38,034 bases of DNA, taken from IMG/VR virus record IMGVR_UViG_2534681658_000022. One strand, 5' to 3'. Below, one piece after another: positions 22,874 through 38,034 of the stretch. Every line of letters begins with the position of its first letter. Position 1 is the stretch's first letter. The position numbers and the translations under genes were made by a program. Origin of the DNA: a virus. Lineage: Duplodnaviria > Heunggongvirae > Uroviricota > Caudoviricetes. Below the pieces are notes generated by a model, which worked only from the letters and a program-made list of their open reading frames with translations, was not told where the DNA came from and did not search any database.

Positions 22874-23545
22874 TTAAAAACCAAGCTCATCTCTGATTCT
22901 TGGGAATTTTTTCATTACTCGAATATCAGTTAATAAATGCCAACGCCAAAAAACAGAAAATGGATATGATACATTACACATTGGCTTTAGCTTATTCTTG
23001 GCCTCTTGGATTTCTTGTTCTGTGCTTCGATCACTGACAAGTTTCATTCTCCAACCAGTAAAGTAAAACAATTCATCTTGTAACTTCTCTGAGAGATTTG
23101 CTCTTGTAATGCCCCTCAACCCCGTACTCGAAGAGTTAAAACACTTATCTAATAATTTGACTGTATTTAAAACCTTTCTACTTGGTCTTTTTCTTCTTGG
23201 GTATACTTGAACACCACTCGTTATAGCGTTCCCTGCGAGATGAACAATCTCACTGAAAACATCAACATCACTCTTTGTGCAATCAAGTAAGTTTTCAAAA
23301 GAATCACTTTTAATACTATTGCATCGACTGCAAGCTAAAAATAGATTGTTCCAATCATATTTGAGCTCATCAAGATCACGATGTGGAATAAAATGTTCTA
23401 TCTCTGGATCCATAAGATTACCTTGCTCACAGAGATAACATTTTCCATGAAATATTTCGTCTAAAGCATTTACAACTGTTTTATGGTTATATACTTTTCT
23501 CGACAAGCATTGAGGTGCAGGAATATTTCTAGTAACATTAAACAT
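22874..23545 (-). CDS. HNH endonuclease, Septu PtuB-like
   Basis: 223 aa with an N-terminal HNH motif (HGKCYLCE...EIEHFIPH...NLFLACSRCNSIK). AT-rich. Overlaps the upstream ATPase gene by 8 nt. Confidence 0.75.
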   Translation of the reverse strand: MFNVTRNIPAPQCLSRKVYNHKTVVNALDEIFHGKCYLCEQGNLMDPEIEHFIPHRDLDELKYDWNNLFLACSRCNSIKSDSFENLLDCTKSDVDVFSEIVHLAGNAITSGVQVYPRRKRPSRKVLNTVKLLDKCFNSSSTGLRGITRANLSEKLQDELFYFTGWRMKLVSDRSTEQEIQEAKNKLKPMCNVSYPFSVFWRWHLLTDIRVMKKFPRIRDELGF

Positions 23546-24776
23546 CGTCTTCCCTTTCGCTATAATCTAAATATTTACTCTTAGCGATCATAAAAGCTGC
23601 TTTTGAACTTTTATCAAGAAAATCAATACTCTTCTGTAACGTTTTCATTATAGAATGAAATCTATCGTCGAAGACATTATTTTCTACTAAAGTCATTAAT
23701 TCTTTAACTAATGCATTTAGCTTATCCGAAGATACATCCTCACCCAACAATCCCTTTATAATTGCTGTGTAAGAATACAATGATAAATCACCCATCTGAT
23801 CCAATGTTGAGAGATTAAATATAATCGCATCAGATACTGATTGGATTACGAAAGGTGAATGCGTAGAAACAATAAATTGTATTTGCGGAAAAGATGATGA
23901 AAAAAAACTAAATACTTTCTTTTGCAATGTTACATGAAGATGAGCATCAATTTCATCAATAAGTACTATCCCTGTCATATCATGTTTTCTGATTTTATCA
24001 AGCTCTGCTTTTATCAATAAATCAGTATAAATAGAAAGAATTGATGAAAAACCAGATGACAACTTATCAAGTCCAAATGGTTCCTTATTATTTTGTAAAA
24101 GATAGATTTTCAACTTGTCGAGATCAAAATCCATTCTAATACTTTCATCTTCAAAAAGTTCTTTTAAGTCATCATTAATACTCTCAATAATATCAAAGGC
24201 TCTTTTATAGTCATCATCCTTGCCCACTCCCTTACTGACTAAAGCATAATTCCACAATGTAACTATGTATCTTTCAAAATACATACCAGCATCAATCTTA
24301 GAATTATTTCTCTGTGCGTTCCCATACTCAGTTAACAACAAATCGAGGCTGCTAATCTTACCATCATTTTTTATTTTCGCTTCTCGAATAGCAGGAAATA
24401 ATCTTATAATTGATTTTTTCTTTTTTGCAGCAACCCTGAAATCAACCACATCATTAAAAGTAATATCAAAGCTCTCAAATTCTTTTAATTTTTCTTTCAG
24501 TCTCTCAATTTCTTCGTTTAAATAGCTATAATTACCATCCCCTCTATTTGAATACTTTAAGTTTTCTTGACTGGAATTCAATTCCTTTTGTAGCTGCTCC
24601 TTAGTATAAGGATCATGTGAATTAATCGATTTTTCTATAAACTCATAAATATTCTCGATCAACCTAGTTTTACCAGAGCCATTATCTCCTGATATTATTA
24701 GATTCTTACCATCAAGATTTAATGTGTAAGGCTCATCGTTCCTTTTAAAGAAGATAGTTTCGATGAAATGTCGCAT
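23538..24776 (-). CDS. ABC/AAA-type ATPase, Septu PtuA-like
   Basis: Walker A GDNGSGKT, Walker B/D-loop VLIDEIDAHLH, and STHSP motif. Start set at the ATG preceded by GGGAGG; the tracked ORF starts at 24791. Confidence 0.75.
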   Translation of the reverse strand: MRHFIETIFFKRNDEPYTLNLDGKNLIISGDNGSGKTRLIENIYEFIEKSINSHDPYTKEQLQKELNSSQENLKYSNRGDGNYSYLNEEIERLKEKLKEFESFDITFNDVVDFRVAAKKKKSIIRLFPAIREAKIKNDGKISSLDLLLTEYGNAQRNNSKIDAGMYFERYIVTLWNYALVSKGVGKDDDYKRAFDIIESINDDLKELFEDESIRMDFDLDKLKIYLLQNNKEPFGLDKLSSGFSSILSIYTDLLIKAELDKIRKHDMTGIVLIDEIDAHLHVTLQKKVFSFFSSSFPQIQFIVSTHSPFVIQSVSDAIIFNLSTLDQMGDLSLYSYTAIIKGLLGEDVSSDKLNALVKELMTLVENNVFDDRFHSIMKTLQKSIDFLDKSSKAAFMIAKSKYLDYSEREDDV

Positions 24777-24866
24777 TATTCCTCCCGTCATACTTAATAG
24801 CTTTTAGATAATATGACATTACATGTTAGATTTCATCCGTTTTGTGAACATATCCACTGCCGCGCG

Positions 24867-25228: not shown

Positions 25229-25882
25229 ATGAATAAATACAAACTTTTCGCACAGCTATCAAGATATTCATTTGAAGCGCAGATTGATGATTTCGAAAAA
25301 TATATCCTAGGAGCAGGCGGCCAAAACAGAGTTGACTTATCGGAATTAAAAAAAGCATATGAAGATGAAAAAAAGAATGCTCCTGACGATTATATTAATT
25401 ACTTAGAAGACTATTATTCAGAGCAATATGATTTCTTAGTTAACATACAACCAAATATTTTTAATAAATCTGCTTTGGTATCTTTATACTCATGCTTAGA
25501 GCACAACCTAAACGACTATTGCAATATATGTCAAAGGATTGTAAACACCAATATATCAGTAACCGATTTTAATGGTGATGGCATCCACAAAGCAAAAAGA
25601 TATTTAACAAAATTAATGGATATAAACTTTGGCCTGTCACAAGAGTGGCGATTCATGACAGAGTTTAACAAAGTAAGGAATTGCATAGTTCATGCTAATG
25701 GAGACATTAAAAAAATGAGCACAGCTGTAGCCTTAAAAGATATCATTGATAAAACACCTACTCTTTCATTAAACAATGAAAATAATATAATAATCTCCTT
25801 AAATTATTTAAAAGATACTATCACAAAAATTAGAAAACTCTTTCAATGGTTATATACACATCTGGATCAATCATCGAAATGA
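25229..25882 (+). CDS. Hypothetical protein with HEPN-type RNxxxH motif (candidate abortive-infection effector)
   Basis: 217-aa AT-rich ORF with TATAAT at 25203-25208 upstream. Motif RNCIVH at residues about 151-156. No recognisable phage function. Confidence 0.55.
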   Translation: MNKYKLFAQLSRYSFEAQIDDFEKYILGAGGQNRVDLSELKKAYEDEKKNAPDDYINYLEDYYSEQYDFLVNIQPNIFNKSALVSLYSCLEHNLNDYCNICQRIVNTNISVTDFNGDGIHKAKRYLTKLMDINFGLSQEWRFMTEFNKVRNCIVHANGDIKKMSTAVALKDIIDKTPTLSLNNENNIIISLNYLKDTITKIRKLFQWLYTHLDQSSK

Positions 25883-26134: not shown

Positions 26135-27001
26135 TTAGATGGCTTTGCTTCGATATTCAATTTCTAAAATCGCCTTTGTCATTGCCGCAATAGTTATAGC
26201 TTCTACCATAGTCAATTCAGGCTTGTTCAAGCTTCCGTGTCCAGCAGTAGGTAATTTGTTACGTAAATCATAAATATCTTTAACAGCATCAATAAGATTC
26301 TTAGGTAATTTTGACATTTTTTCGAACTGTTTAAAAAAACCACCCAATGACTCATTTGCCACATTCGGGTTTTGAGTGATTTCCTTAGCCATAGTTTCTA
26401 AAACATTAGAGGCTGCGTGCAGTGCACCTGCCGGATCATTATTATCCAAGCAATTATTCATTCTATCTATTTGCTGAACGATATTTGGGTGCAATCTCTT
26501 TAAGTAATCACTAGCCAATTCTTCATTGAAATTTTTGACACTTTCAAAAACATCGCAATCTAAATAAAATTTAGGATTGACTGACATCCATGTATATTTC
26601 CAATCATTTTCTAAATTATCTTTTTCCGCAATACGCCTGCCAGTGTCCTGATCTATCTCATCAACATATTTACACATATAATCGGCGTAGTAGTGTAAAT
26701 ATCTAAATGATATTTCTGGGCAAAAATTACTAACTGATGCAAGGCCGCCATATTCTTTTGTAGTAACTGTAGGGACTTCTTCATCACATAAAGATGAGAA
26801 AGTGGTTCTTTCCCAAAATTCGCCCAACTCTTTTTCTTTCCTAGTTGCCATACCAGCTATCATATTGATGCTTGAGAGCAAAACTACACTCTGATAGTAT
26901 CGAGGACATCTGTATGAACTAGCATATGGGCATATTGATGATGCTTTACGATTAATACGCTCTTTTTCCCACCAATTTTTATCAGGAATAATTCTTTGCA
27001 T
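26135..27001 (-). CDS. Hypothetical protein, Cys-rich N-terminus (uncharacterised hotspot cargo)
   Basis: 288-aa AT-rich ORF, convergent with the 217-aa gene. N-terminal cysteines (CPY...C.RYY...CPE...CKY); C-terminal region with LRNKLPTAGHG. No recognised family; the true start may be a downstream Met. Confidence 0.55.
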   Translation of the reverse strand: MQRIIPDKNWWEKERINRKASSICPYASSYRCPRYYQSVVLLSSINMIAGMATRKEKELGEFWERTTFSSLCDEEVPTVTTKEYGGLASVSNFCPEISFRYLHYYADYMCKYVDEIDQDTGRRIAEKDNLENDWKYTWMSVNPKFYLDCDVFESVKNFNEELASDYLKRLHPNIVQQIDRMNNCLDNNDPAGALHAASNVLETMAKEITQNPNVANESLGGFFKQFEKMSKLPKNLIDAVKDIYDLRNKLPTAGHGSLNKPELTMVEAITIAAMTKAILEIEYRSKAI

Positions 27002-27489
27002 AATTTAGCTACTATCTCACGAGTGAATGAATGTTTAGCCTTCTGCACAGTTTATCAGTTCCGGCATGCCTACTGCTACCCCACTGATTCAACTTCAAGT
27101 TATGAGTTAAAGCGATTCGGTTTCGCTAGATGACACACTAGTGTTAATTTATGGATAAAAATTTATCACTTAAAATTAACTAATGCCTGTTGCGACCAAA
27201 AGTGTGCTGGAATATTATTTTCGTCTGGCCTATTATCAAGCTAATTATCCAAATTAGAGTTACTCTCATTCATCAGCAACAAATAAATACACCTGTTCAC
27301 TTTCTCAAAGTGTTCCTGTTTTATTTTTAAAGCAAACAACGCCGCCTATTCGTCCGAATGTACAACAAACATCAGGTTCTGACACAAAGTGGACGATCAC
27401 TTATCAAAATGACCGCCCACCTTACACCTCATTTCACTCGTTGCCCAAACTCCCCCCAACAGGATAAATCCTCTTGGGGGCAACGTTTC

Positions 27490-27723
27490 TTAATGCAGCC
27501 AGCTGTCGTCTTCCCACACCTTCTGCATAATTTTCAGCACTTGTTTTCTTTCTTCGTCCAGTTGCAGTCCGGTCAGTTCCACACCGTTAGAGCTACCTTT
27601 GCGGATACGAATTACCGTTTTGGGATACAGGGGGCGCAGATTGCGGTAAAGCTCGGATTCAAGGGCATCCAGGGTAGACTGGCTAATCTTCTGCTCTTTA
27701 TCGATCATTATTTCAATGCGCAT
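27490..27723 (-). CDS. DinI-family protein (Tum C-terminal-like)
   Basis: 77-aa product MRIEIMIDKEQKISQSTLDALESELYRNL...VWEDDSWLH matches the DinI fold signature. GAGGTGA RBS. Hairpin terminator just downstream, about 27455-27485. Confidence 0.75.
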   Translation of the reverse strand: MRIEIMIDKEQKISQSTLDALESELYRNLRPLYPKTVIRIRKGSSNGVELTGLQLDEERKQVLKIMQKVWEDDSWLH

Positions 27724-27733
27724 AAAAGTCACC

Positions 27734-27922
27734 TCAGCTGATGACATCCATTGAGCGGTTGTATTCGTGGGTTCTGATTTTTGCCATGAGTTCATCAGTC
27801 AATTCAGAAACCCACTGCAGAGCCAGCCCCTTCTCTTCATCACTACACTCACTAGCCGCTACAAGCTTAAGAAAAAAATCAATGCGCTGGAGCTTCAAAG
27901 ACTCCAAAAAATAGTCCTGCAT
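27734..27922 (-). CDS. Small SOS-regulated protein (possible Tum N-terminal-like antirepressor segment)
   Basis: 62-aa ORF starting MQDYFLESL with GGAGGAAAG RBS, directly downstream of a LexA box; its end overlaps the dinI-like start in another frame. Confidence 0.45.
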   Translation of the reverse strand: MQDYFLESLKLQRIDFFLKLVAASECSDEEKGLALQWVSELTDELMAKIRTHEYNRSMDVIS

Positions 27923-27965
27923 CTTTCCTCCTATAACACCACGAGCAATACTGTATACATGACCA

Positions 27966-27981
27966 CTGTTTATATTTACAG
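27966..27981. promoter_or_regulatory. LexA (SOS) box
   Basis: CTGTTTATATTTACAG fits the CTGT-N8-ACAG consensus and overlaps a TATA-rich -10-like region for the minus-strand small ORF/dinI-like operon. Confidence 0.6.
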
Positions 27982-28075
27982 TATATAATAATCTTACTGA
28001 TGTAAAACGTTTTTTTACGTTCATCAGCCTGATATGCCTGGTATTATTAAGAGCACGAATTGTTAATCCGCGTAA

Positions 28076-30490
28076 TTAATACAGGTTCCGCCACTTATCA
28101 TCTTCCTGTAAACGCTGATTCCGATAGAAGATACGCAGGCCAGCCCCTGACGGAATACTGCCTCCGCGAAGGAGTAAATCGACCTCTTTCTCGCTGCCAT
28201 CAAATCCTCTGGACTTCAGTTCATAGACGAGCTGCTGTCGCTGATGGTCTGTAATTCGCTGTTTGTAGTCTTTGCGCCGTTTCGGTTTCACCTGGCGTAA
28301 CCTTGCAGCCAGTTCCCGACGCTCTTTTTTGCTCATACTGTGCAGATAATCGTGCAACTCCTTGTCATCCTGGCGGGTAATGTCAGTTCTGGTGTCCCCA
28401 TCAGCTGATTTATCTTTCTCCTGTTGGTTCAAATTTTCAGCAAGGGGACAGTTATTGCCACGAGTCCAAGGGGCGCAAGCGCCCTTGTCGGCTGCCGCCT
28501 CCTGAACGTCAACGGCCTTACGAACCATTTTCCACTTCACTGCATGAGTGCAGATCTTGCCCTCTGCAATGGGTGACCAGATGCCATAAATACGAATACC
28601 GTGATCGCCATAGGCGGTCGGCTCTTCGTTGATTTCATAAGCAGTTCTGATGAGGTGATATTTGCGGGGAACCAGTACGCCGCCCTGCTTCATGATGTAG
28701 GTGGCAAAACAACCAGCATCAGCAGCAGCCAGGATTGCATCAAGGCGCGGGTTATCCAGTACCGGCGCACCTGCTTTTTTGTCCCCCTGCTGCCTTGCCG
28801 CCTGACCAGCCAGCAATCGCAGTTCACGGTAAGCCTGACGCCCCGGAATGCCAAAGAAGCGGAATTGCTGAACACGATGCAGAGACGCCCAAGCATTAAC
28901 GTATTCAGCGTTATCACGCAGGGATTTACCCGTTTCCTTGCTGATCTCGCCAGCCAGACCACGCCCGTCAATGTTCTTACTGATGTATTTCGCGATGTAG
29001 CTTGTTGGCGTACCTTTGCGCGGGTTTATCAGCTCGGACTTAAAGCGTGGTCCCGTGTTATTACCCAGCTCCTCGCGGTCTTCACGAATGGCAAACTTAC
29101 GCAACAAAGCAGTAATGGCGCGGCGATCTTTTTTGCGCATAAAACACAACAGGTGCCAGTGAACTGTACCGTCGTGATGCGGCTCAGCCACCCGCACGCC
29201 ATACCAGCGCAACCCGGCTTTGTGCATCGCCTTACGAAATGCAGCAAACATACCGACCAGATAATCACTGCTTTGTCTTACCGTCGCATTTGTCCAGGTT
29301 GGGTTGGGCCTGCCGTTATTTAGCGTGGAATGGAAACGTGACGGACAGGTGATGGTGTAGAAAACGGCGCAGTCACCGCGCATTTCCGCGATAAGCTCCA
29401 GACCTTTAACACAGGCCATCATCTCATTGCGGCGATGCGCAGGGTTGCTGCTGCTGGCGTTTACCACATCCTCCATGTCCAGCGTGTCGCCGTCTTCGTT
29501 CACCAGTTCATGAGAACGGAAAAACTCCAGCGACTTACGGCGCTGCTCACGTTTATGCATCACGGCTTCATAGCTGACATAAGGAGATGCTTTTTTGCTA
29601 ACCAGGCAGACAGCGCGCAACTGCTCTTCCCGCCATTCGCAACGCATCTTCCATAATTTCCGATACCACCAGTCGGCGCACAACATACGCGCCAGCGAAC
29701 CCGGAATGAGTTCATAGGGCACGGGTTTACGGCGGTTTCTTTTCCGACGGAGTTGCTCAAACGCAGGCGGGATAACATCCAGACGCAGGGTTTCCGCTGC
29801 CACCTTTTCCCACGTCTTGCGGATTTCTTCTGGCTTAACGTCATCGGTGGCATACAAATCACCACAAGCGGCATCAAGGCACATGCTCATATGCGCAGCA
29901 ACAAGGGTAGACAGACGCTTCACCTGATCCTGACTCATTTCAGGCAGGATCAGCAGGCCGTCCAGCCCTTCATGGCTTGCCATAAAGCGAAAAGAAGTGG
30001 ATAGCTGACAGTCGCGTACATGCTCCAGTCGTTCCAGACATGGCTTAATCGTCTCACGCAAATAGCGGGAATAAGCCTTTGGCCTGCCCAGGCTGCTGAA
30101 GTATTCAATACGTTGCATCAGCGGCTTGCTGATATGGGAAGGCTGGGCATTGACGTCCGCCAGAATGACCATATCTGGATTAAAACGCTGCTGCTCATGC
30201 GCCAGCTTTGCCCGGCTAATGAGTTTATCCTGCTCCATTTCGCGTTGGACAGGATCACGGGATTCATTAAAGAAATAACGCTCCCAGACCTGATCACTCA
30301 GTGCCTCGCGGCGCAGTTGTTCCAGCTCGTTATCGACAGCGTACAGAGTGATCAGGTTTGAAAGCGCAGAAACCGGCGCAACTTCCGCCGGGTCCAGATA
30401 AGGGTTAATGGCCTTTTTCGGGCTGTTCCATGAGAATGCTGCGGCGACCTCGTTAAAGCCGCTGCAGTTGTTCATATCAGCATGGCTCAT
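28076..30490 (-). CDS. A: Replication initiation endonuclease, P2 gpA family
   Basis: 804-aa ORF at the end of the early operon, the position and size class of the P2/186 A protein. Confidence 0.88.
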
Positions 30491-31233
30491 GCACGCACTC
30501 CGTACACGGCAGAACTATCCACTCCACGCGAAGGATCAAATCCCACCCAGCAGCGCGGCCCGGAAACAGCGATGATTTCTGTTGCAGATTTACTCTCACC
30601 AGCTGCTACGCCGATGCTGCGTTTTGCCTTGATGTAGTGGTGAGTAAAATTGCGATACAGCGAACGGATCAGGGATGTGTCACTGTTAGAAACAATGACC
30701 GGATGTCCTTCTGATGACCGATGTTCAAGAACGGATGCCAGGTGATACTGGTCATCTTCAGTGAAACCATCAGTGTGATAGCCGGAAAACGTACCGTCAT
30801 ACGGCGGATCGCAATACACCACATCCCCCACCTGCAGCATCGCCAGCGTTTCATCAAAGCTCGCGCAGATAAACGTTGCCCGCTTGGCTTTCTCTGCAAA
30901 TGCGCGAATTTCTTTTTCAGGGAAATACGGATTTTTATAATTACCGTAGGGAATATTGAAATGCCCGCTCTTGTTATAGCGACATAAACCACGGTAACCG
31001 TGACGATTGAGATACAGGAAATATACCGCTTTCATGAAATCAGTAATTTCAGTTGAGTAATTAAACTCCTGCCTTATGTTGTAATAAGCCACCTCCCTGT
31101 TTGCGATCTCAAATAAAACTCTGGCGCGAGATATAAACGATTCACAATCAGCGGCAACCTTTTTATAGAGGTTGATTAAATCAGGATTAATATCCGCAAC
31201 CAGATAACTGGGATAATCCGTCTCCATCATCAC
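30487..31233 (-). CDS. dam: DNA adenine methyltransferase (Dam-like), C-terminal frame of a frameshifted gene
   Basis: Contains the DPPY catalytic motif and [16 protein letters not shown]. The Dam-like N-terminus (MSTILKWAGNKTAIMSELKK...) is encoded from ATG 31345 in another frame and stops at about 31256 after a run of 7 A (plus-strand T7 at 31285-31291). Confidence 0.7.
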
Positions 31234-33837: not shown

Positions 33838-34470
33838 ATGTTAAACATCAGAATGGGTTCCGATACGGGAGGTAAGGCAGCTATTGAGAGGCTGCTTGAG
33901 GCTTATGGATTCACAACTAAGCAGGCATTAAGCGAGCACCTGAATGTCTCAAAAAGTACTATGGCAAACAGAGTGTTACGTGACAGTTTTCCTGCTGACT
34001 GGATAATTCAGTGTGCACTAGAAACCGGTGTTTCGTTACTTTGGTTAGCCACAGGACAGGGAAGCATGAAAGAAGGATACGAGCCTGAGAAAAGATCTCA
34101 TAACGAGAACAAACAAGCAATTAAACCGTTATCCAAACTCATAACTCCATCTATTCCTAAAGGAACCTTGGAAAATGGACAACTCAGTATTGATGAAGAG
34201 ATTTTCCTAGACCACAGCATATTACCTGCAGATTATGAAGAATCGATGTTCTTAGAAACCCCTACTGATTGTTATCTCATCGATAAATCAGTTAAACAAG
34301 TCAGCAATGGATTCTGGCTTATCAATATTGATGGAATGATTATTATTGCAAAAATCATGCGGATTCCCGGCAATAAGATTGTAGTAAATCAAGATGAAGC
34401 ATCTTTCGAGTGCTCTGCTGATGATGTGGAAGTTATTGGGCGTGCAGTCAAAGTAATAAAGAGTATCTAA
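33838..34470 (+). CDS. cI: CI-type immunity repressor
   Basis: 210 aa with N-terminal HTH region and C-terminal domain; GGAG RBS; divergent from apl and immediately upstream of int, as for 186 cI. Confidence 0.8.
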   Translation: MLNIRMGSDTGGKAAIERLLEAYGFTTKQALSEHLNVSKSTMANRVLRDSFPADWIIQCALETGVSLLWLATGQGSMKEGYEPEKRSHNENKQAIKPLSKLITPSIPKGTLENGQLSIDEEIFLDHSILPADYEESMFLETPTDCYLIDKSVKQVSNGFWLINIDGMIIIAKIMRIPGNKIVVNQDEASFECSADDVEVIGRAVKVIKSI

Positions 34471-35499: not shown

Positions 35500-36168
35500 A
35501 TGAATAGCGAACTAGAGTTACTTATAAAAATATTATTCCCTTCCCTATCTGCCATTATATCCTTATTAGGGCTTAAAACAGGGTGGACTTATAAAAAAGA
35601 CAAACTATTCACATCACGTAAAAACATTAGCGAATTTTCATATCAGATGTATAAAAGCAGTGAAGATCCGACCTTCAAAAAACTGGCGGAAGATTACGGC
35701 ATTGCTGCATTAACCAAAGATAACACATTGACAAAAAAACAAAGATTAATATTACTCAACACAACAAACCCCGTTAGCGATATAGATAATTATTCCAAAT
35801 GTCAAAGTCTAATTTCCATTACCACCCATAAAGAAATATTCGCATGGAATAAAAAAAGATATAAATACAGCATATATAGAAAATTAATAAAAATCATAAC
35901 AACTCTAATTTACTTCATGAGCAGTCTCATCGTAGCACTTCCTTTCAGTTATTCTGTTGTAGTAAGTGCTAAGATGATGGAGAAGATAAACCATCTAACT
36001 ACTTGGCAATACTTTGGTTTAAGCAGCTATTTTGTGGTATCGGGAGTAGCAATATGCTTTATCTGCCTAGATAAGCTCTCCAAGATTAAGATCGCCGAGA
36101 GATTAATCGTTTCGAATAGGCGTTTAGGCGACAAATGCAGTGGCGGCACTTTGGCGGCAGAAAGTTAA
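35500..36168 (+). CDS. Hypothetical membrane protein between int and attR (candidate lysogenic-conversion cargo)
   Basis: 222-aa very AT-rich ORF starting 11 nt after the int stop on the same strand. N-terminal TM helix, Lys-rich cytoplasmic region, then two C-terminal TM helices. Confidence 0.55.
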   Translation: MNSELELLIKILFPSLSAIISLLGLKTGWTYKKDKLFTSRKNISEFSYQMYKSSEDPTFKKLAEDYGIAALTKDNTLTKKQRLILLNTTNPVSDIDNYSKCQSLISITTHKEIFAWNKKRYKYSIYRKLIKIITTLIYFMSSLIVALPFSYSVVVSAKMMEKINHLTTWQYFGLSSYFVVSGVAICFICLDKLSKIKIAERLIVSNRRLGDKCSGGTLAAES

Positions 36169-36243
36169 AAACCCATAAAACGGACAGACACCGTATAAAT
36201 CTAACCAACTGAAAATCAAAGCAAATCATTGTTTTTACAGACA

Positions 36244-36288
36244 TTGAAATGCTATGTAGGAATTTCGGACGCGGGTTCAACTCCCGCC
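36244..36288. repeat. attR core: second copy of the 45-bp ssrA 3'-end repeat
   Basis: Identical to 1016-1060. Confidence 0.85.
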
Positions 36289-36322
36289 AGCTCCACCACT
36301 TTTTAGTTGTTTGAAGTTCAAT

Positions 36323-36356
36323 GAAGTCTACTAAGCCCACACAGCACAAGCTCTGC
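36323..36356 (+). terminator. Rho-independent terminator downstream of the displaced ssrA 3' end
   Basis: Imperfect hairpin AAGCCCACACAGC / GCTCTGCGGGCTT followed by TTTTTT. Confidence 0.4.
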
Positions 36357-36463
36357 GGGCTTTTTTACGTCTATTGTCGTCCAGTGAGAATTGCTGAGAA
36401 CTACGAGTTATGGCACCCTGAATGGGACCCACTAAGAAGGGTCCAAAAACCGAGGGTCCCAAA

Positions 36464-37249
36464 ATGGCAAAAATCGCTAAGAAGCTCACTGACACTGAAA
36501 TCAAAAGCACCAAGCCAGCCGATAAAGAAATCAACTTGTTTGACGGTGATGGTCTGATTCTACGAATCGCTCCTTTGGCGAAAGGAGGCAAGAAAAATTG
36601 GTATTTCAGGTATGCAGTACCAGTGAGCAAGAAAAGAACCAAAATGAGCCTTGGGACATATCCTCACCTTACCCTTGCAAGAGCCAGAGCCTTACGTGAT
36701 GAATATCTCTCCTTTCTGGCAAATGGTGTTGATCCCCAAATCCATAACAACGATAAGGCGAAGGCATTAAAGAGTGCTACTGAGCACACTCTCCAAGCCG
36801 TAGCGCGGAAATGGTTAGATGAGAAGGTAAAGACATCAGGTATCTCACAAGACCATGCAGCAGACATCTGGCGCAGCTTAGAGAGAAATGTCTTTCCCGG
36901 TCTGGGTAATGTCCCTATCAATGAGATCCGACCTAAGCTCTTAAAACAACACCTTGATCCTATTGAGCAACGAGGCGTATTGGAAACTCTACGCCGTATC
37001 ATTTCACGTCTGAATGAAATCTTCCGGTGGGCAGCTACTGAAGAACTTATTGAGTTCAACCCGGCTGACAACCTTGGTCAAAGATTCAGTAAACCAAAAA
37101 AGCAAAATATGCCTGCCCTTCCCCCAAGCGAATTGCCAAGGTTTATGGAATCTTTGACGAATGCGTCAATCCGGTTGGAAACACGTATGCTAATTGAATG
37201 GCAATTGTTGACATGGGTTCGTCCGGGTGAAGCCGTTCGCGCAAGGTGA
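36464..37249 (+). pseudogene. intA: P4-type (IntA-like) integrase, 3'-truncated by IS insertion
   Basis: N-terminus (TDTEIKSTKPADKEINLFDGDGLILRIAP...) and internal segment (ESLTNASIRLETRMLIEWQLLTWVRPGEAVRAR) track the CP4-57 IntA family. The frame ends in a TGA created at the IS629 left end. Confidence 0.8.
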
Positions 37250-37300
37250 ACCGCCCCGGGAATCCTGGAGACTAAACTTCCTGAGAAAGAGGTAAACAGG

Positions 37301-37627
37301 ATGACTAAAAATACTCGTTTTTCCCCCGAAGTCCGTCAACGGGCAGTCCGTATGGTTCTGGAAAGTCAGAGCGAATATGACTCACAATGGGCGACAATTT
37401 GTTCCATTGCTCCAAAGATTGGCTGTACGCCGGAGACTCTGCGTGTCTGGGTTCGCCAGCATGAGCGGGATACCGGGGGCGGTGATGGAGGGCTCACCAC
37501 CGCTGAACGTCAGCGTCTGAAAGAGCTGGAACGTGAAAATCGTGAACTGCGCCGCAGTAACGATATCCTTCGCCAGGCTTCCGCTTATTTTGCGAAGGCG
37601 GAGTTCGACCGCCTCTGGAAAAAATGA
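37301..37627 (+). CDS. IS3-family transposase OrfA (IS629-type)
   Basis: 108-aa product [41 protein letters not shown]... recognised as IS629/IS1203 OrfA. Confidence 0.9.
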
Positions 37628-38034
37628 TGCCACTGCTGGATAAGCTGCGTGAGCAGTACGGGGTCGGACCGCTATGCAGCGAACTGCATATTGCCCCGTC
37701 AACGTATTACCACTGTCAGCAACAGCGACATCATCCGGATAAACGCAGTGCCCGTGCGCAGCGCGATGACTGGCTGAAGAAAGAGATACAGCGCGTATAC
37801 GATGAAAATCACAAGGTATACGGTGTGCGTAAAGTCTGGCGTCAGTTGTTACGGGAAGGTATCAGAGTGGCCAGATGCACTGTGGCACGTCTCATGGCGG
37901 TTATGGGACTTGCCGGTGTTCTCCGGGGTAAAAAGGTCCGTACGACCATCAGCCGGAAAGCCGTTGCCGCAGGCGACCGCGTAAACCGTCAGTTCGTGGC
38001 AGAACGACCTGACCAGCTGTGGGTGGCTGATTTT
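37624..38034 (+). CDS. IS3-family transposase OrfB (IS629-type), 5' partial
   Basis: Open frame from ATG 37624 to the window end ([30 protein letters not shown]...), overlapping the orfA stop. Confidence 0.85.

What the first reader, a model, noticed from the sequence alone, without database searches (positions are those of the whole stretch)
27490..28024. SOS-controlled Tum-like antirepressor module, apparently split into two ORFs
A good LexA box (CTGTTTATATTTACAG, 27966-27981) overlaps the promoter of a 62-aa ORF, followed by a 77-aa DinI-family ORF that starts 12 nt before the first one ends, in another frame. The 186 antirepressor Tum is about 146 aa with a DinI-like C-terminal part as I recall, so 62 + 77 aa is close to a Tum split by a frameshift, or a natural two-gene variant. 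Either way this places prophage induction under LexA control.
Basis: partly seen in the sequence, partly recalled or inferred. Interest (0 to 1): 0.45.

Follow-up and report, generated by a model that had tools for sequence, protein, structure and literature searches.

The report
LexA-controlled tumA–tumB prophage induction module
This is the already-described two-gene (tumA antirepressor plus DinI-like tumB) version of the phage 186 Tum switch that lets a P2/Fels-2-like E. coli prophage wake up when the host SOS response removes LexA; it is intact, common and ordinary.

Summary
The features are real. On the minus strand, just after the gpA-like replicase gene, lies a LexA box (27981-27966). 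It overlaps the -10 of a 186-p95-like promoter (TTTACA-17-TACTGT). A 62-aa gene (27922-27734) and a 77-aa DinI-family gene (27723-27490) follow.

One detail is wrong: the genes do not overlap. A 10-nt spacer carrying the second gene's ribosome-binding site separates them.

The 62-aa protein is a remote but clear homologue of the 186 Tum N-terminal half (hhalign E 7e-10, residues 1-45 vs 1-45; reciprocal PHROG hits). The 77-aa protein is 41% identical to Tum 71-145.

This is not a frameshifted tum:
- In 40 loci from many Enterobacterales genera both genes are under strong purifying selection.
- The spacer is 9-13 nt, in all three frames.
- About half the loci carry tumA without any dinI-like gene.
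- The LexA box arms are invariant in 38 of 40.

The arrangement is annotated as tumA/tumB in PSP3 and described for Fels-2. In E. coli HS prophage DuoHS, deleting a 61/62-identical gene abolished mitomycin induction, as did lexA(Ind-).

The module occurs in about 20% of complete E. coli genomes. Verdict: already known; low interest. The only gap is annotation, since tumA is still called a hypothetical protein.

The parts
28001..28006 (-). -35 hexamer TTTACA of the p95-like SOS promoter
   Evidence: Read from the sequence. TTTACA, or TTCACA/TTTCAC, is conserved at the same distance in 38 related loci. 186 p95 has TTCACA. The generic promoter scan did not flag it because the -10 is weak.
27978..27983 (-). 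-10 hexamer TACTGT, 17 nt from the -35, forming the left arm of the LexA box
   Evidence: Same hexamer and arrangement as the annotated p95 -10 of phage 186. TA immediately 5' of CTGT is kept in 37 of 38 relatives.
27966..27981 (.). LexA (SOS) box CTGTAAATATAAACAG, palindromic arms
   Evidence: Only CTGT-N8-ACAG in the window. CTG/CAG arms are invariant while the A/T-rich spacer varies in 38 of 40 related loci. Identical in Fels-2 and DuoHS.
27949..27968 (-). Candidate second, degenerate LexA-like box CAGTGGTCATGTATACAGTA (good right arm only)
   Evidence: About 14 of 20 matches to the consensus as I recall it, TACTGTATATATATACAGTA, counted by eye (not computed with a tool). The ATACAGT arm recurs in most Enterobacteriaceae relatives. 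Function not tested.
27734..27922 (-). tumA: 62-aa antirepressor gene (AGGAGG at 27932-27927)
   Evidence: ORF and SD. phrog_698 3.6e-38, phrog_8554 2.4e-8, phrog_1993 2.2e-3. hhalign against the 186-type Tum N-domain: prob 96.5%, E 7.2e-10. dN/dS 0.04-0.24 against 38 relatives, mostly at or below 0.13. 61/62 identical to ECHS_RS04495, the gene deleted as 'tum' in DuoHS. AF2 model is a helical hairpin, pLDDT 87.
27490..27723 (-). tumB: 77-aa DinI-family gene (SD GAGG at 27735-27732, overlapping the tumA stop codon)
   Evidence: Pfam DinI 5.6e-22. 41% identical to 186 Tum 71-145. 77% identical to PSP3 TumB by tblastn. E. coli DinI 1GHH E 3.8e-6 end to end. dN/dS 0.07-0.20. Met1 aligns with the internal GTG start of truncated 186 Tum.
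27439..27485 (-). Stem-loop just after tumB; possible weak terminator (analogue of 186 t95a) at the edge of the variable region
   Evidence: MFE -26.2 kcal/mol for the 76 nt folded, z -2.68. No U-run, so not called by the terminator scan. Homology to Fels-2 and DuoHS ends at the tumB stop.
33838..34470 (+). 186-type CI immunity repressor, the presumed target of TumA
   Evidence: Pfam Phage_CI_repr 1.7e-30 plus Phage_CI_C 7.2e-31. Flanked by Apl/Cox-like (33716-33474) and CII (33441-32932) genes.
28076..30490 (-). gpA-like rolling-circle replicase gene, immediately upstream; fixes the module at the same genome position as tum in 186, PSP3 and Fels-2
   Evidence: 804-aa ORF. 89-99% identical to Fels-2, DuoHS and L007 gpA. 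Same order A-tum in 186, PSP3 and Fels-2.

Best explanation
This is the SOS induction operon of a Fels-2/186-like (Peduoviridae) E. coli prophage, in its natural two-gene form tumA-tumB.

Proposed mechanism:
1. In the lysogen, LexA sits on the box that overlaps the -10 of the p95-like promoter and keeps the operon off.
2. DNA damage activates RecA, LexA cleaves itself, and the promoter fires.
3. TumA, a 62-aa helical hairpin homologous to the N-terminal half of 186 Tum, binds the 186-type CI repressor and stops it from holding the lytic promoter, so the prophage enters lytic growth.
4. TumB, the DinI-like protein, is an accessory modulator of the RecA filament and SOS signal. It corresponds to the truncated Tum products that 186 makes from an internal start.

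Shown here: the sequence anatomy, the homologies, conservation and purifying selection.
Shown in the literature for a 61/62-identical gene with an identical promoter: requirement for SOS induction.
Inferred: direct LexA binding at this site, TumA-CI contact, and the TumB role.
For: Anatomy
- gpA, then TTTACA-17-TACTGT with the LexA box, then SD-tumA, a 10-nt spacer, tumB and a hairpin.
- Same order and promoter design as annotated 186 p95/tum and PSP3 tumA/tumB.

Homology
- Reciprocal PHROG hits link ORF62, PSP3 TumA and the 186 Tum N-half.
- hhalign E 7.2e-10, columns 1-45 against 1-45, without gaps.
- tumB is 41% identical to Tum 71-145, matches Pfam DinI and solved DinI.

A real, separate pair of genes
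- dN/dS is about 0.04-0.2 for both.
- The spacer is 9-13 nt in all three frames.
- All tumA-family matches but one spurious 1218-aa entry are small proteins, and none is a TumA-DinI fusion, among 66 representatives at 50% identity.
- 19 of 40 loci have tumA and no dinI-like gene.

LexA box
- Arms invariant in 38 of 40 loci while spacer and flanks vary.

Target
- The window encodes a 186-type CI, Apl and CII.
- TumA type tracks CI type. ORF62-type tumA goes with the window-type CI N-domain (57-83% identical) in 34 of 35 genome loci plus Fels-2. 186-type Tum goes with a CI N-domain closer to 186 than to the window in 67 of 68 loci with a CI hit.

Experiment in the literature
- DuoHS delta-tum (ECHS_RS04495, a 62-aa gene, 61/62 identical) and lexA(Ind-) both fail to lyse after mitomycin C (PMC12055606). 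The promoter and box are identical.
- In PSP3 the upstream gene carries the antirepressor activity (Christie, personal communication cited in PMC3121763).
Against: - No direct evidence here that LexA binds this box or that TumA touches CI.
- BLASTP finds no similarity between ORF62 and Tum, and a narrow profile gave only E 1.2e-3. The homology rests on profiles.
- Near-identical TumA proteins sit with CI repressors only 40-43% identical overall.
- One locus (L028, Pantoea stewartii) pairs ORF62-type TumA with a 186-type CI, so specificity is not simple.
- The PSP3 activity assignment is a personal communication.
- I did not look in the paper for complementation of the DuoHS deletion.
- The generic promoter scan did not call this promoter.
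Confidence: 0.9

Rival explanations
1. A 186-type fused tum gene was broken by a recent frameshift or indel (or a sequencing error) near 27723-27736, so the module is a pseudogene or an assembly artefact.
For: 62 + 77 aa is close to the 146 aa of Tum. The two ORFs are in different frames.
Against: - The same sequence is 100% identical in 5 complete E. coli genomes and 95-99% identical in about 1000 more.
- Functional phages Fels-2, RE2010 and DuoHS have the same junction.
- Each ORF has its own SD.
- Both ORFs show dN/dS of about 0.04-0.24.
- The spacer is 9-13 nt in all three frames across genera.
- No ORF62-type protein is fused to DinI among 66 representative clusters or 40 loci.
- There is no remnant of the 25-aa Tum linker.
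Confidence: 0.02
2. Only the dinI-like gene matters: an SOS-regulated DinI moron. The 62-aa ORF would be an unrelated leader or small ORF with no antirepressor role, and induction would work some other way, for example CI autocleavage.
For: - BLASTP shows no ORF62-Tum similarity.
- ORF62 has no Pfam or NCBIfam family.
- Annotation pipelines call it hypothetical.
- A weak UmuD-like PHROG hit lies on the CI C-domain (E 0.003).
Against: - Profile homology to the Tum N-half and to PSP3 TumA.
- Strong purifying selection on ORF62.
- tumA with its LexA box persists in 19 of 40 loci that have lost or never had dinI.
- Deleting the 62-aa gene alone abolished induction of DuoHS.
Confidence: 0.04
3. A fused TumA-TumB protein is made from the split genes by programmed +1 frameshifting or stop-codon bypass, reproducing the 146-aa 186 Tum.
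For: The tumB frame is open for 24 codons upstream of its ATG (the 101-aa ORF 27795-27490). In PSP3 tumA and tumB are in the same frame, separated only by TAG ATT.
Against: - An open run of 24 codons is expected by chance about one time in three.
- No slippery or prfB-like +1 site at the junction (read from the sequence).
- The frame relation differs among relatives (0, +1, +2).
- The junction hairpin is not conserved.
- Half of the relatives have no tumB at all.
Confidence: 0.02
4. The LexA-box match is a chance palindrome in A/T-rich intergenic DNA, and the operon is not SOS-regulated.
For: One CTGT-N8-ACAG per 38 kb is about what shuffles give (mean 0.56; 46 of 100 shuffles have at least one).
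Against: - It sits exactly where 186 and PSP3 have their LexA site, overlapping the -10.
- Arms are invariant and the spacer is variable in 38 of 40 diverged relatives.
- lexA(Ind-) blocks induction of DuoHS, which has the identical promoter.
Confidence: 0.02

Closest known systems
Phage PSP3 tumA/tumB and the Fels-2 (STM2728 / STM2726.1) and E. coli HS DuoHS (ECHS_RS04495 / ECHS_RS04500) SOS operons
   Same: - Two separate small genes, antirepressor then DinI-like, directly after gene A and behind a LexA box overlapping the -10.
- The Fels-2 and DuoHS proteins are 98-99% identical to the window's, and the promoter is identical.
- PSP3 is annotated tumA ('UV induction of prophage') and tumB.
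- DuoHS delta-tum and lexA(Ind-) are non-inducible.
   Different: - PSP3 TumA is a different sequence subtype. It belongs to phrog_1993, which ORF62 matches only at E 2.2e-3, and is about 20% identical to ORF62 in a global alignment.
- In PSP3 the two genes are in the same frame, separated by TAG ATT. Here there is a 10-nt spacer and a +1 frame.
- The window's CI is only 40% identical overall to the DuoHS CI; against Fels-2, N-domain identity is 72% and C-domain identity 58%.
Coliphage 186 Tum (146 aa), p95 SOS operon
   Same: - LexA-repressed promoter with TACTGT as the -10.
- An N-terminal antirepressor part homologous to TumA (E 7e-10) and a C-terminal DinI-like part 41% identical to TumB.
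- Located after gene A and acts on a 186-type CI.
- 186 also makes the DinI-like part alone, from an internal GTG with its own SD at exactly the position of TumB Met1.
   Different: - 186 has one fused polypeptide with a roughly 25-aa linker. Here there are two genes.
- The N-domains are only about 20% identical.
- 186 has orf97 downstream in the same operon. Here a hairpin and an unrelated variable region follow.
E. coli DinI (81 aa, PDB 1GHH), RecA-filament-binding SOS modulator
   Same: TumB aligns end to end with DinI (E 3.8e-6) and passes the Pfam DinI threshold.
   Different: It scores far below the NCBIfam equivalog cut-off (42 against 111 bits). It is a phage DinI-like paralogue, not the chromosomal dinI orthologue. 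RecA binding is untested.
Gifsy-1/-2/Fels-1 LexA-controlled antirepressors (GfoA, GftA, FsoA) and N15 AntC
   Same: Same logic: LexA represses a small antirepressor that inactivates a non-cleavable repressor. A dinI homologue sits in the same operon in the Gifsy phages (PMC3121763).
   Different: I did not compare these protein families with TumA. According to the paper the gene order is reversed (dinI first) and the phages are lambdoid, with different repressors.

Membership tests
186 Tum-type SOS antirepressor module | LexA operator overlapping the -10 of the promoter that drives the antirepressor gene | tested here: met
   TTTACA-17-TACTGT with CTGT-N8-ACAG at 27981-27966. Same layout as annotated 186 p95. 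Conserved in 38 of 40 relatives. Actual LexA binding was not tested.
186 Tum-type SOS antirepressor module | Protein segment homologous to the N-terminal (non-DinI) half of Tum | tested here: met
   hhalign A3 against A2: prob 96.5%, E 7.2e-10, 1-45 against 1-45. 186 Tum hits phrog_698 at 2.4e-5 and ORF62 hits phrog_1993 at 2.2e-3; both hit phrog_8554. BLASTP alone is negative.
186 Tum-type SOS antirepressor module | DinI-like segment homologous to Tum residues 71-146 | tested here: met
   41% identity over 75 aa, E 3e-24. Pfam DinI 5.6e-22.
186 Tum-type SOS antirepressor module | Both segments in one 146-aa polypeptide | tested here: not met
   Two ORFs separated by a stop codon and a 10-nt spacer, in different frames. 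It is therefore the split tumA/tumB variant, not a 186-type fused Tum.
186 Tum-type SOS antirepressor module | Position after replication gene A in a P2/186-like genome that carries a 186-type CI / Apl / CII switch | tested here: met
   gpA at 30490-28076. CI has Pfam Phage_CI_repr plus Phage_CI_C, CII has Phage_CP76, and there is an Apl/Cox PHROG hit.
186 Tum-type SOS antirepressor module | Protein binds CI and blocks its DNA binding | not testable with these tools
   Indirect support only: TumA type co-varies with CI N-domain type, and there is genetic evidence in DuoHS.
PSP3/Fels-2-type split tumA-tumB operon | Two adjacent small genes, each with its own ribosome-binding site, kept intact in relatives | tested here: met
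   AGGAGG and GAGG Shine-Dalgarno sequences. 19 of 40 loci have both genes intact, with a 9-13 nt spacer. dN/dS is about 0.04-0.24.
PSP3/Fels-2-type split tumA-tumB operon | The upstream gene is required for SOS (UV or mitomycin) induction | not testable with these tools
   Reported for ECHS_RS04495, which is 61/62 identical, and for PSP3 tumA (GenBank note; personal communication cited in PMC3121763).
DinI family | Matches the Pfam DinI model (PF06183) above its gathering score | tested here: met
   78.3 bits against a cut-off of 24.2.
DinI family | Orthologue of chromosomal E. coli DinI (NCBIfam equivalog NF007893) | tested here: not met
   42 bits against a cut-off of 111. It is a DinI-like paralogue.
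DinI family | Binds RecA filaments and modulates coprotease activity | not testable with these tools
   Inferred from homology to 1GHH and from the 186 record's note 'modulates SOS induction'.

The most novel reading that the evidence does not exclude
One TumA sequence type serves prophages whose CI repressors are only about 40% identical overall but share a conserved N-terminal DNA-binding domain (57-83% identical).

The reading is that TumA, a helical hairpin with no curated family and no structural relative, recognises the CI N-domain rather than the oligomerisation domain. It would then act as a broad-specificity antirepressor that could cross-induce co-resident Fels-2-like prophages carrying divergent CIs, a P2-family counterpart of the Gifsy 'crosstalk'. 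Whether those CIs actually confer different immunities was not tested.

The L028 locus (ORF62-type TumA with a 186-type CI) would then be either a broader-range case or a non-inducible prophage.
Probability: 0.3. Interest if true: 0.4.

Novelty: already known. Interest (0 to 1): 0.12.

Why it matters
It confirms that this prophage is wired for SOS induction through a LexA-controlled antirepressor rather than repressor cleavage. That is textbook for 186-like phages and has been demonstrated for a virtually identical E. coli HS prophage.

The practical value is annotation. The tumA gene has no Pfam or NCBIfam model and is labelled 'hypothetical protein' in about 1100 of 5426 complete E. coli genomes, including BL21. 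Inducibility of these common prophages, and of the defence cargo they carry (Septu in this window), is therefore easy to overlook.

Tried and rejected
- BLASTP of ORF62 against 186 Tum found nothing. A narrow profile gave only a marginal E of 1.2e-3. A broader profile was needed.
- Pfam and NCBIfam have no family for ORF62.
- A profile search of PDB sequences found nothing.
- Foldseek of the AF2 helical-hairpin model against PDB gave only generic helical hits with E above 1.
- The generic promoter/terminator scan did not call the p95-like promoter. It flagged a junction hairpin at 27745-27728. I tested whether that hairpin could couple tumB translation to tumA, but it is not conserved in relatives, so I rejected it.
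- Rfam found nothing in 26900-28200.
- The search for related loci with the diverse alignment A3 failed because it had no conserved stretch.
- A literature search for 'tumA'/'tumB' returned only noise.
- Bunny et al. 2002 (PMC151935) is not held, so its content is cited only through PMC3121763.
- The frameshift-pseudogene, programmed-frameshift and chance-LexA-box readings were considered and rejected (see rival explanations).

Full report
**What is there**

All features below are on the minus strand.
- The 804-aa gpA-like replicase gene ends at 28076.
- In the 153-nt gap that follows lies TTTACA (28006-28001), then 17 nt, then TACTGT (27983-27978).
- TACTGT is the left end of the palindromic LexA box CTGTAAATATAAACAG (27981-27966). 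This is the only CTGT-N8-ACAG in the window.
- AGGAGG (27932-27927) precedes a 62-aa ORF at 27922-27734.
- That ORF's TGA overlaps a GAGG Shine-Dalgarno sequence. After a 10-nt spacer, a 77-aa ORF runs from 27723 to 27490.
- A stable stem-loop without a U-run follows (27485-27439; z -2.7).
- The 96-aa and 101-aa ORFs in the mechanical ORF list are upstream extensions. The 96-aa version would start upstream of the promoter.

The claim that the second ORF starts 12 nt before the first ends is not: the genes are separated, not overlapping. They are in different frames (+1).

**Identity of the two proteins**

*The 77-aa protein*
- It passes the Pfam DinI threshold (E 5.6e-22).
- It aligns end to end with solved E. 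coli DinI (1GHH, E 3.8e-6).
- It is 41% identical to residues 71-145 of 186 Tum (E 3e-24) and 77% identical to PSP3 TumB.
- Its Met1 corresponds exactly to the internal GTG from which 186 makes a truncated, DinI-like Tum. That GTG has its own AAGGAGG.

*The 62-aa protein*
- It has no Pfam or NCBIfam family, and BLASTP finds no similarity to Tum.
- Profile methods show it is homologous to the Tum N-terminal half.
  - It hits phrog_698 (3.6e-38), phrog_8554 (2.4e-8) and phrog_1993 (2.2e-3).
  - 186 Tum hits phrog_1993 (1e-22), phrog_8554 (1.4e-11) and phrog_698 (2.4e-5) over the same residues.
  - PSP3 TumA belongs to phrog_1993 (2.7e-32).
- A profile of diverse relatives (alignment A3, built) aligned to a profile of 186-type N-domains (A2) with probability 96.5% and E 7.2e-10. 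Columns 1-45 matched 1-45 without gaps.
- The shared core is QRI(E/D)hhh+Lhh..xC...(D/E)+xhAhxWh(S/A)EL. Cys26, Ala34 and Glu40 are at identical positions in both proteins.
- AlphaFold2 predicts a helical hairpin (H2-23, H28-61, pLDDT 87). It has no informative structural neighbour.

**Not a broken gene**

- The region is 100% identical in five complete E. coli genomes and present in about 1100 of 5426. It is annotated 'DinI-like family protein | hypothetical protein | replication endonuclease'.
- The phages Fels-2, RE2010, vB_EcoM-813R9 and many Klebsiella phages carry it at about 97% identity. The Fels-2 and DuoHS junctions are the same as here.
- I examined 40 loci from Escherichia, Citrobacter, Enterobacter, Kluyvera, Raoultella, Serratia, Pantoea, Erwinia, Tatumella, Izhakiella and others. 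In these loci:
  - tumA is 56-78 codons, and 62 in 33 of the 40;
  - where a dinI-like gene follows, the spacer is 9, 10, 11, 12 or 13 nt, in all three relative frames;
  - dN/dS against the window is 0.04-0.24 for tumA (mostly at or below 0.13) and 0.07-0.20 for tumB;
  - 19 of the 40 have no dinI-like gene within 9 kb, and two have a truncated one.
- So tumA stands alone and tumB is accessory.
- A full HMMER scan of 1.84 billion representatives found 66 clusters. All but one spurious 1218-aa entry are small proteins, and none is a TumA-DinI fusion.
- By contrast, 186-type Tum is mostly fused. 77 of the 80 best IMG/VR loci encode the 146-aa protein. Stand-alone 63-aa 186-type 'Tum protein' genes also exist.
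- A junction hairpin flagged by the terminator scan is not conserved. No frameshift signal is evident.

**The LexA box**

- One match per 38 kb is what chance gives, so the argument rests on position and conservation.
- The -10 TACTGT lies inside the box, exactly as annotated for 186 p95 (TTCACA-18-TACTGT with LexA site TACTGTATGTTTATACAGTA) and as seen in PSP3.
- In 38 of 40 related loci a CTG-N10-CAG box lies 38-95 nt upstream of tumA.
- The CTG and CAG arms and the flanking TA and T are invariant or nearly so. The A/T-rich spacer and the surrounding DNA vary.
- Of the two remaining loci, one is truncated and one has a single mismatch.
- Many relatives, and the window, also carry a second, degenerate box with a good right arm (27968-27949). 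I did not evaluate it further.

**Mechanism and its support**

- The window encodes a 186-type switch: CI (33838-34470; Phage_CI_repr plus Phage_CI_C), an Apl/Cox-like gene and CII.
- Established knowledge for 186, as summarised in PMC3121763 and PMC7708051: LexA represses p95. After SOS induction, Tum binds CI and prevents operator binding.
- PMC3121763 states that Fels-2 and PSP3 have tum split in two by a stop codon. [quoted passage not shown]
- The PSP3 GenBank record names the genes tumA ('UV induction of prophage') and tumB.
- Most directly, the Phollow study (PMC12055606) deleted 'tum', locus tag ECHS_RS04495, in the E. coli HS prophage DuoHS. That mutant and a lexA(Ind-) mutant both failed to lyse after mitomycin C.
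- ECHS_RS04495 is the 62-aa gene immediately upstream of the DinI-like gene. It differs from the window's TumA at one residue (T51S). The -35, -10 and LexA box are identical.
- Function is therefore experimentally established for an essentially identical module. For this window it remains an inference by near-identity.

**A side observation on specificity**

- Near-identical TumA proteins (98-100%) occur with CI repressors only 40-43% identical overall (DuoHS and L007).
- Split by domain, the CI N-terminal HTH domain stays 57-83% identical to the window's in 34 of 35 genome loci with ORF62-type tumA, and in Fels-2. The C-terminal domain ranges from 26% to 58%.
- This holds even where the neighbouring gpA is of the distant 186-like type.
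- 186 and PSP3, which have other TumA types, have N-domains 39% and 48% identical to the window's.
- Of the 80 loci with 186-type Tum, 68 have a CI hit. In 67 of these the CI N-domain is closer to 186's (55-100%) than to the window's.
- One exception, L028 from Pantoea stewartii, pairs ORF62-type TumA with a 186-type CI.
- This co-variation supports CI as the target and hints that the N-domain is the contact. It is confounded by lineage and by the generally higher conservation of HTH domains.

**Comparison and verdict**

- The module works like 186 Tum and is a member of the PSP3/Fels-2 split tumA-tumB variant.
- It fails only the 'single 146-aa polypeptide' feature of 186 Tum itself.
- TumB is a DinI-family paralogue, not the dinI orthologue (42 against 111 bits on the NCBIfam equivalog).
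- Nothing about the module is new. The only gap is that the TumA family lacks a curated model and is annotated as hypothetical.
- Interest is low.

Noticed in passing
window 22874-24791 (-): A Septu anti-phage defence pair. PtuA is an ATPase at 24791-23538 (PADLOC PDLC00268, E 7e-122). PtuB is an HNH nuclease at 23545-22874 (PDLC00331, E 2e-82). It sits in the variable slot between tumB and the portal gene. From memory, this slot is a known P2-family defence hotspot.
   Followed up: partly
window 26135-27001 (-): A 288-aa ORF, the first gene after the tumB hairpin on the same strand. It has only a weak Abi_C match (Pfam E 1.7e-3) and no NCBIfam family or significant PADLOC match (best PADLOC hit PDC-S32, E 0.008). 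It is a candidate abortive-infection or defence gene. If the hairpin leaks, it could be read from the SOS promoter, as orf97 is in 186.
   Followed up: partly
window 25229-25882 (+): A 217-aa ORF with a weak PADLOC RTasHEPN hit (E 5e-5), lying between the 288-aa ORF and Septu.
   Followed up: no
window 27949-27968 (-): A second, degenerate LexA-like box, CAGTGGTCATGTATACAGTA, that shares CAG with the main box. Its right arm ATACAGT recurs in most Enterobacteriaceae relatives. It could be a second LexA dimer site.
   Followed up: partly
window 33838-34470 (+) versus L006, L007 and other loci: Prophages with 98-100% identical TumA carry CI repressors only 40-43% identical overall. Only the N-terminal HTH domain is conserved (57-83%). 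L028 (Pantoea stewartii) pairs this TumA type with a 186-type CI.
   Followed up: partly
L048 1219-2079 (PSP3 cI): PSP3 CI is 286 aa and contains two tandem copies of the CI N-terminal HTH domain. The window and 186 CIs have one.
   Followed up: no
window 27734-27922 (-) and about 1100 E. coli genomes: An annotation gap. The tumA family has no Pfam or NCBIfam model. It is called 'hypothetical protein' by PGAP, including in BL21 strains, and 'levan regulatory protein' in some records. Gene callers often extend it to 84-96 aa across its own promoter.
   Followed up: yes
window 30487-31233 (-): A Dam-like N6-adenine methyltransferase gene (Pfam MethyltransfD12, E 1.6e-59) directly upstream of gpA, as in Fels-2 and DuoHS.
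   Followed up: no
window 35500-38034: Beyond the prophage integrase there is a second integrase-domain gene. The last ~800 bases fall outside the best matches, and some part of the stretch matches every E. coli genome many times (30,746 places), which suggests a repeated or IS-like element at the window edge.
   Followed up: no
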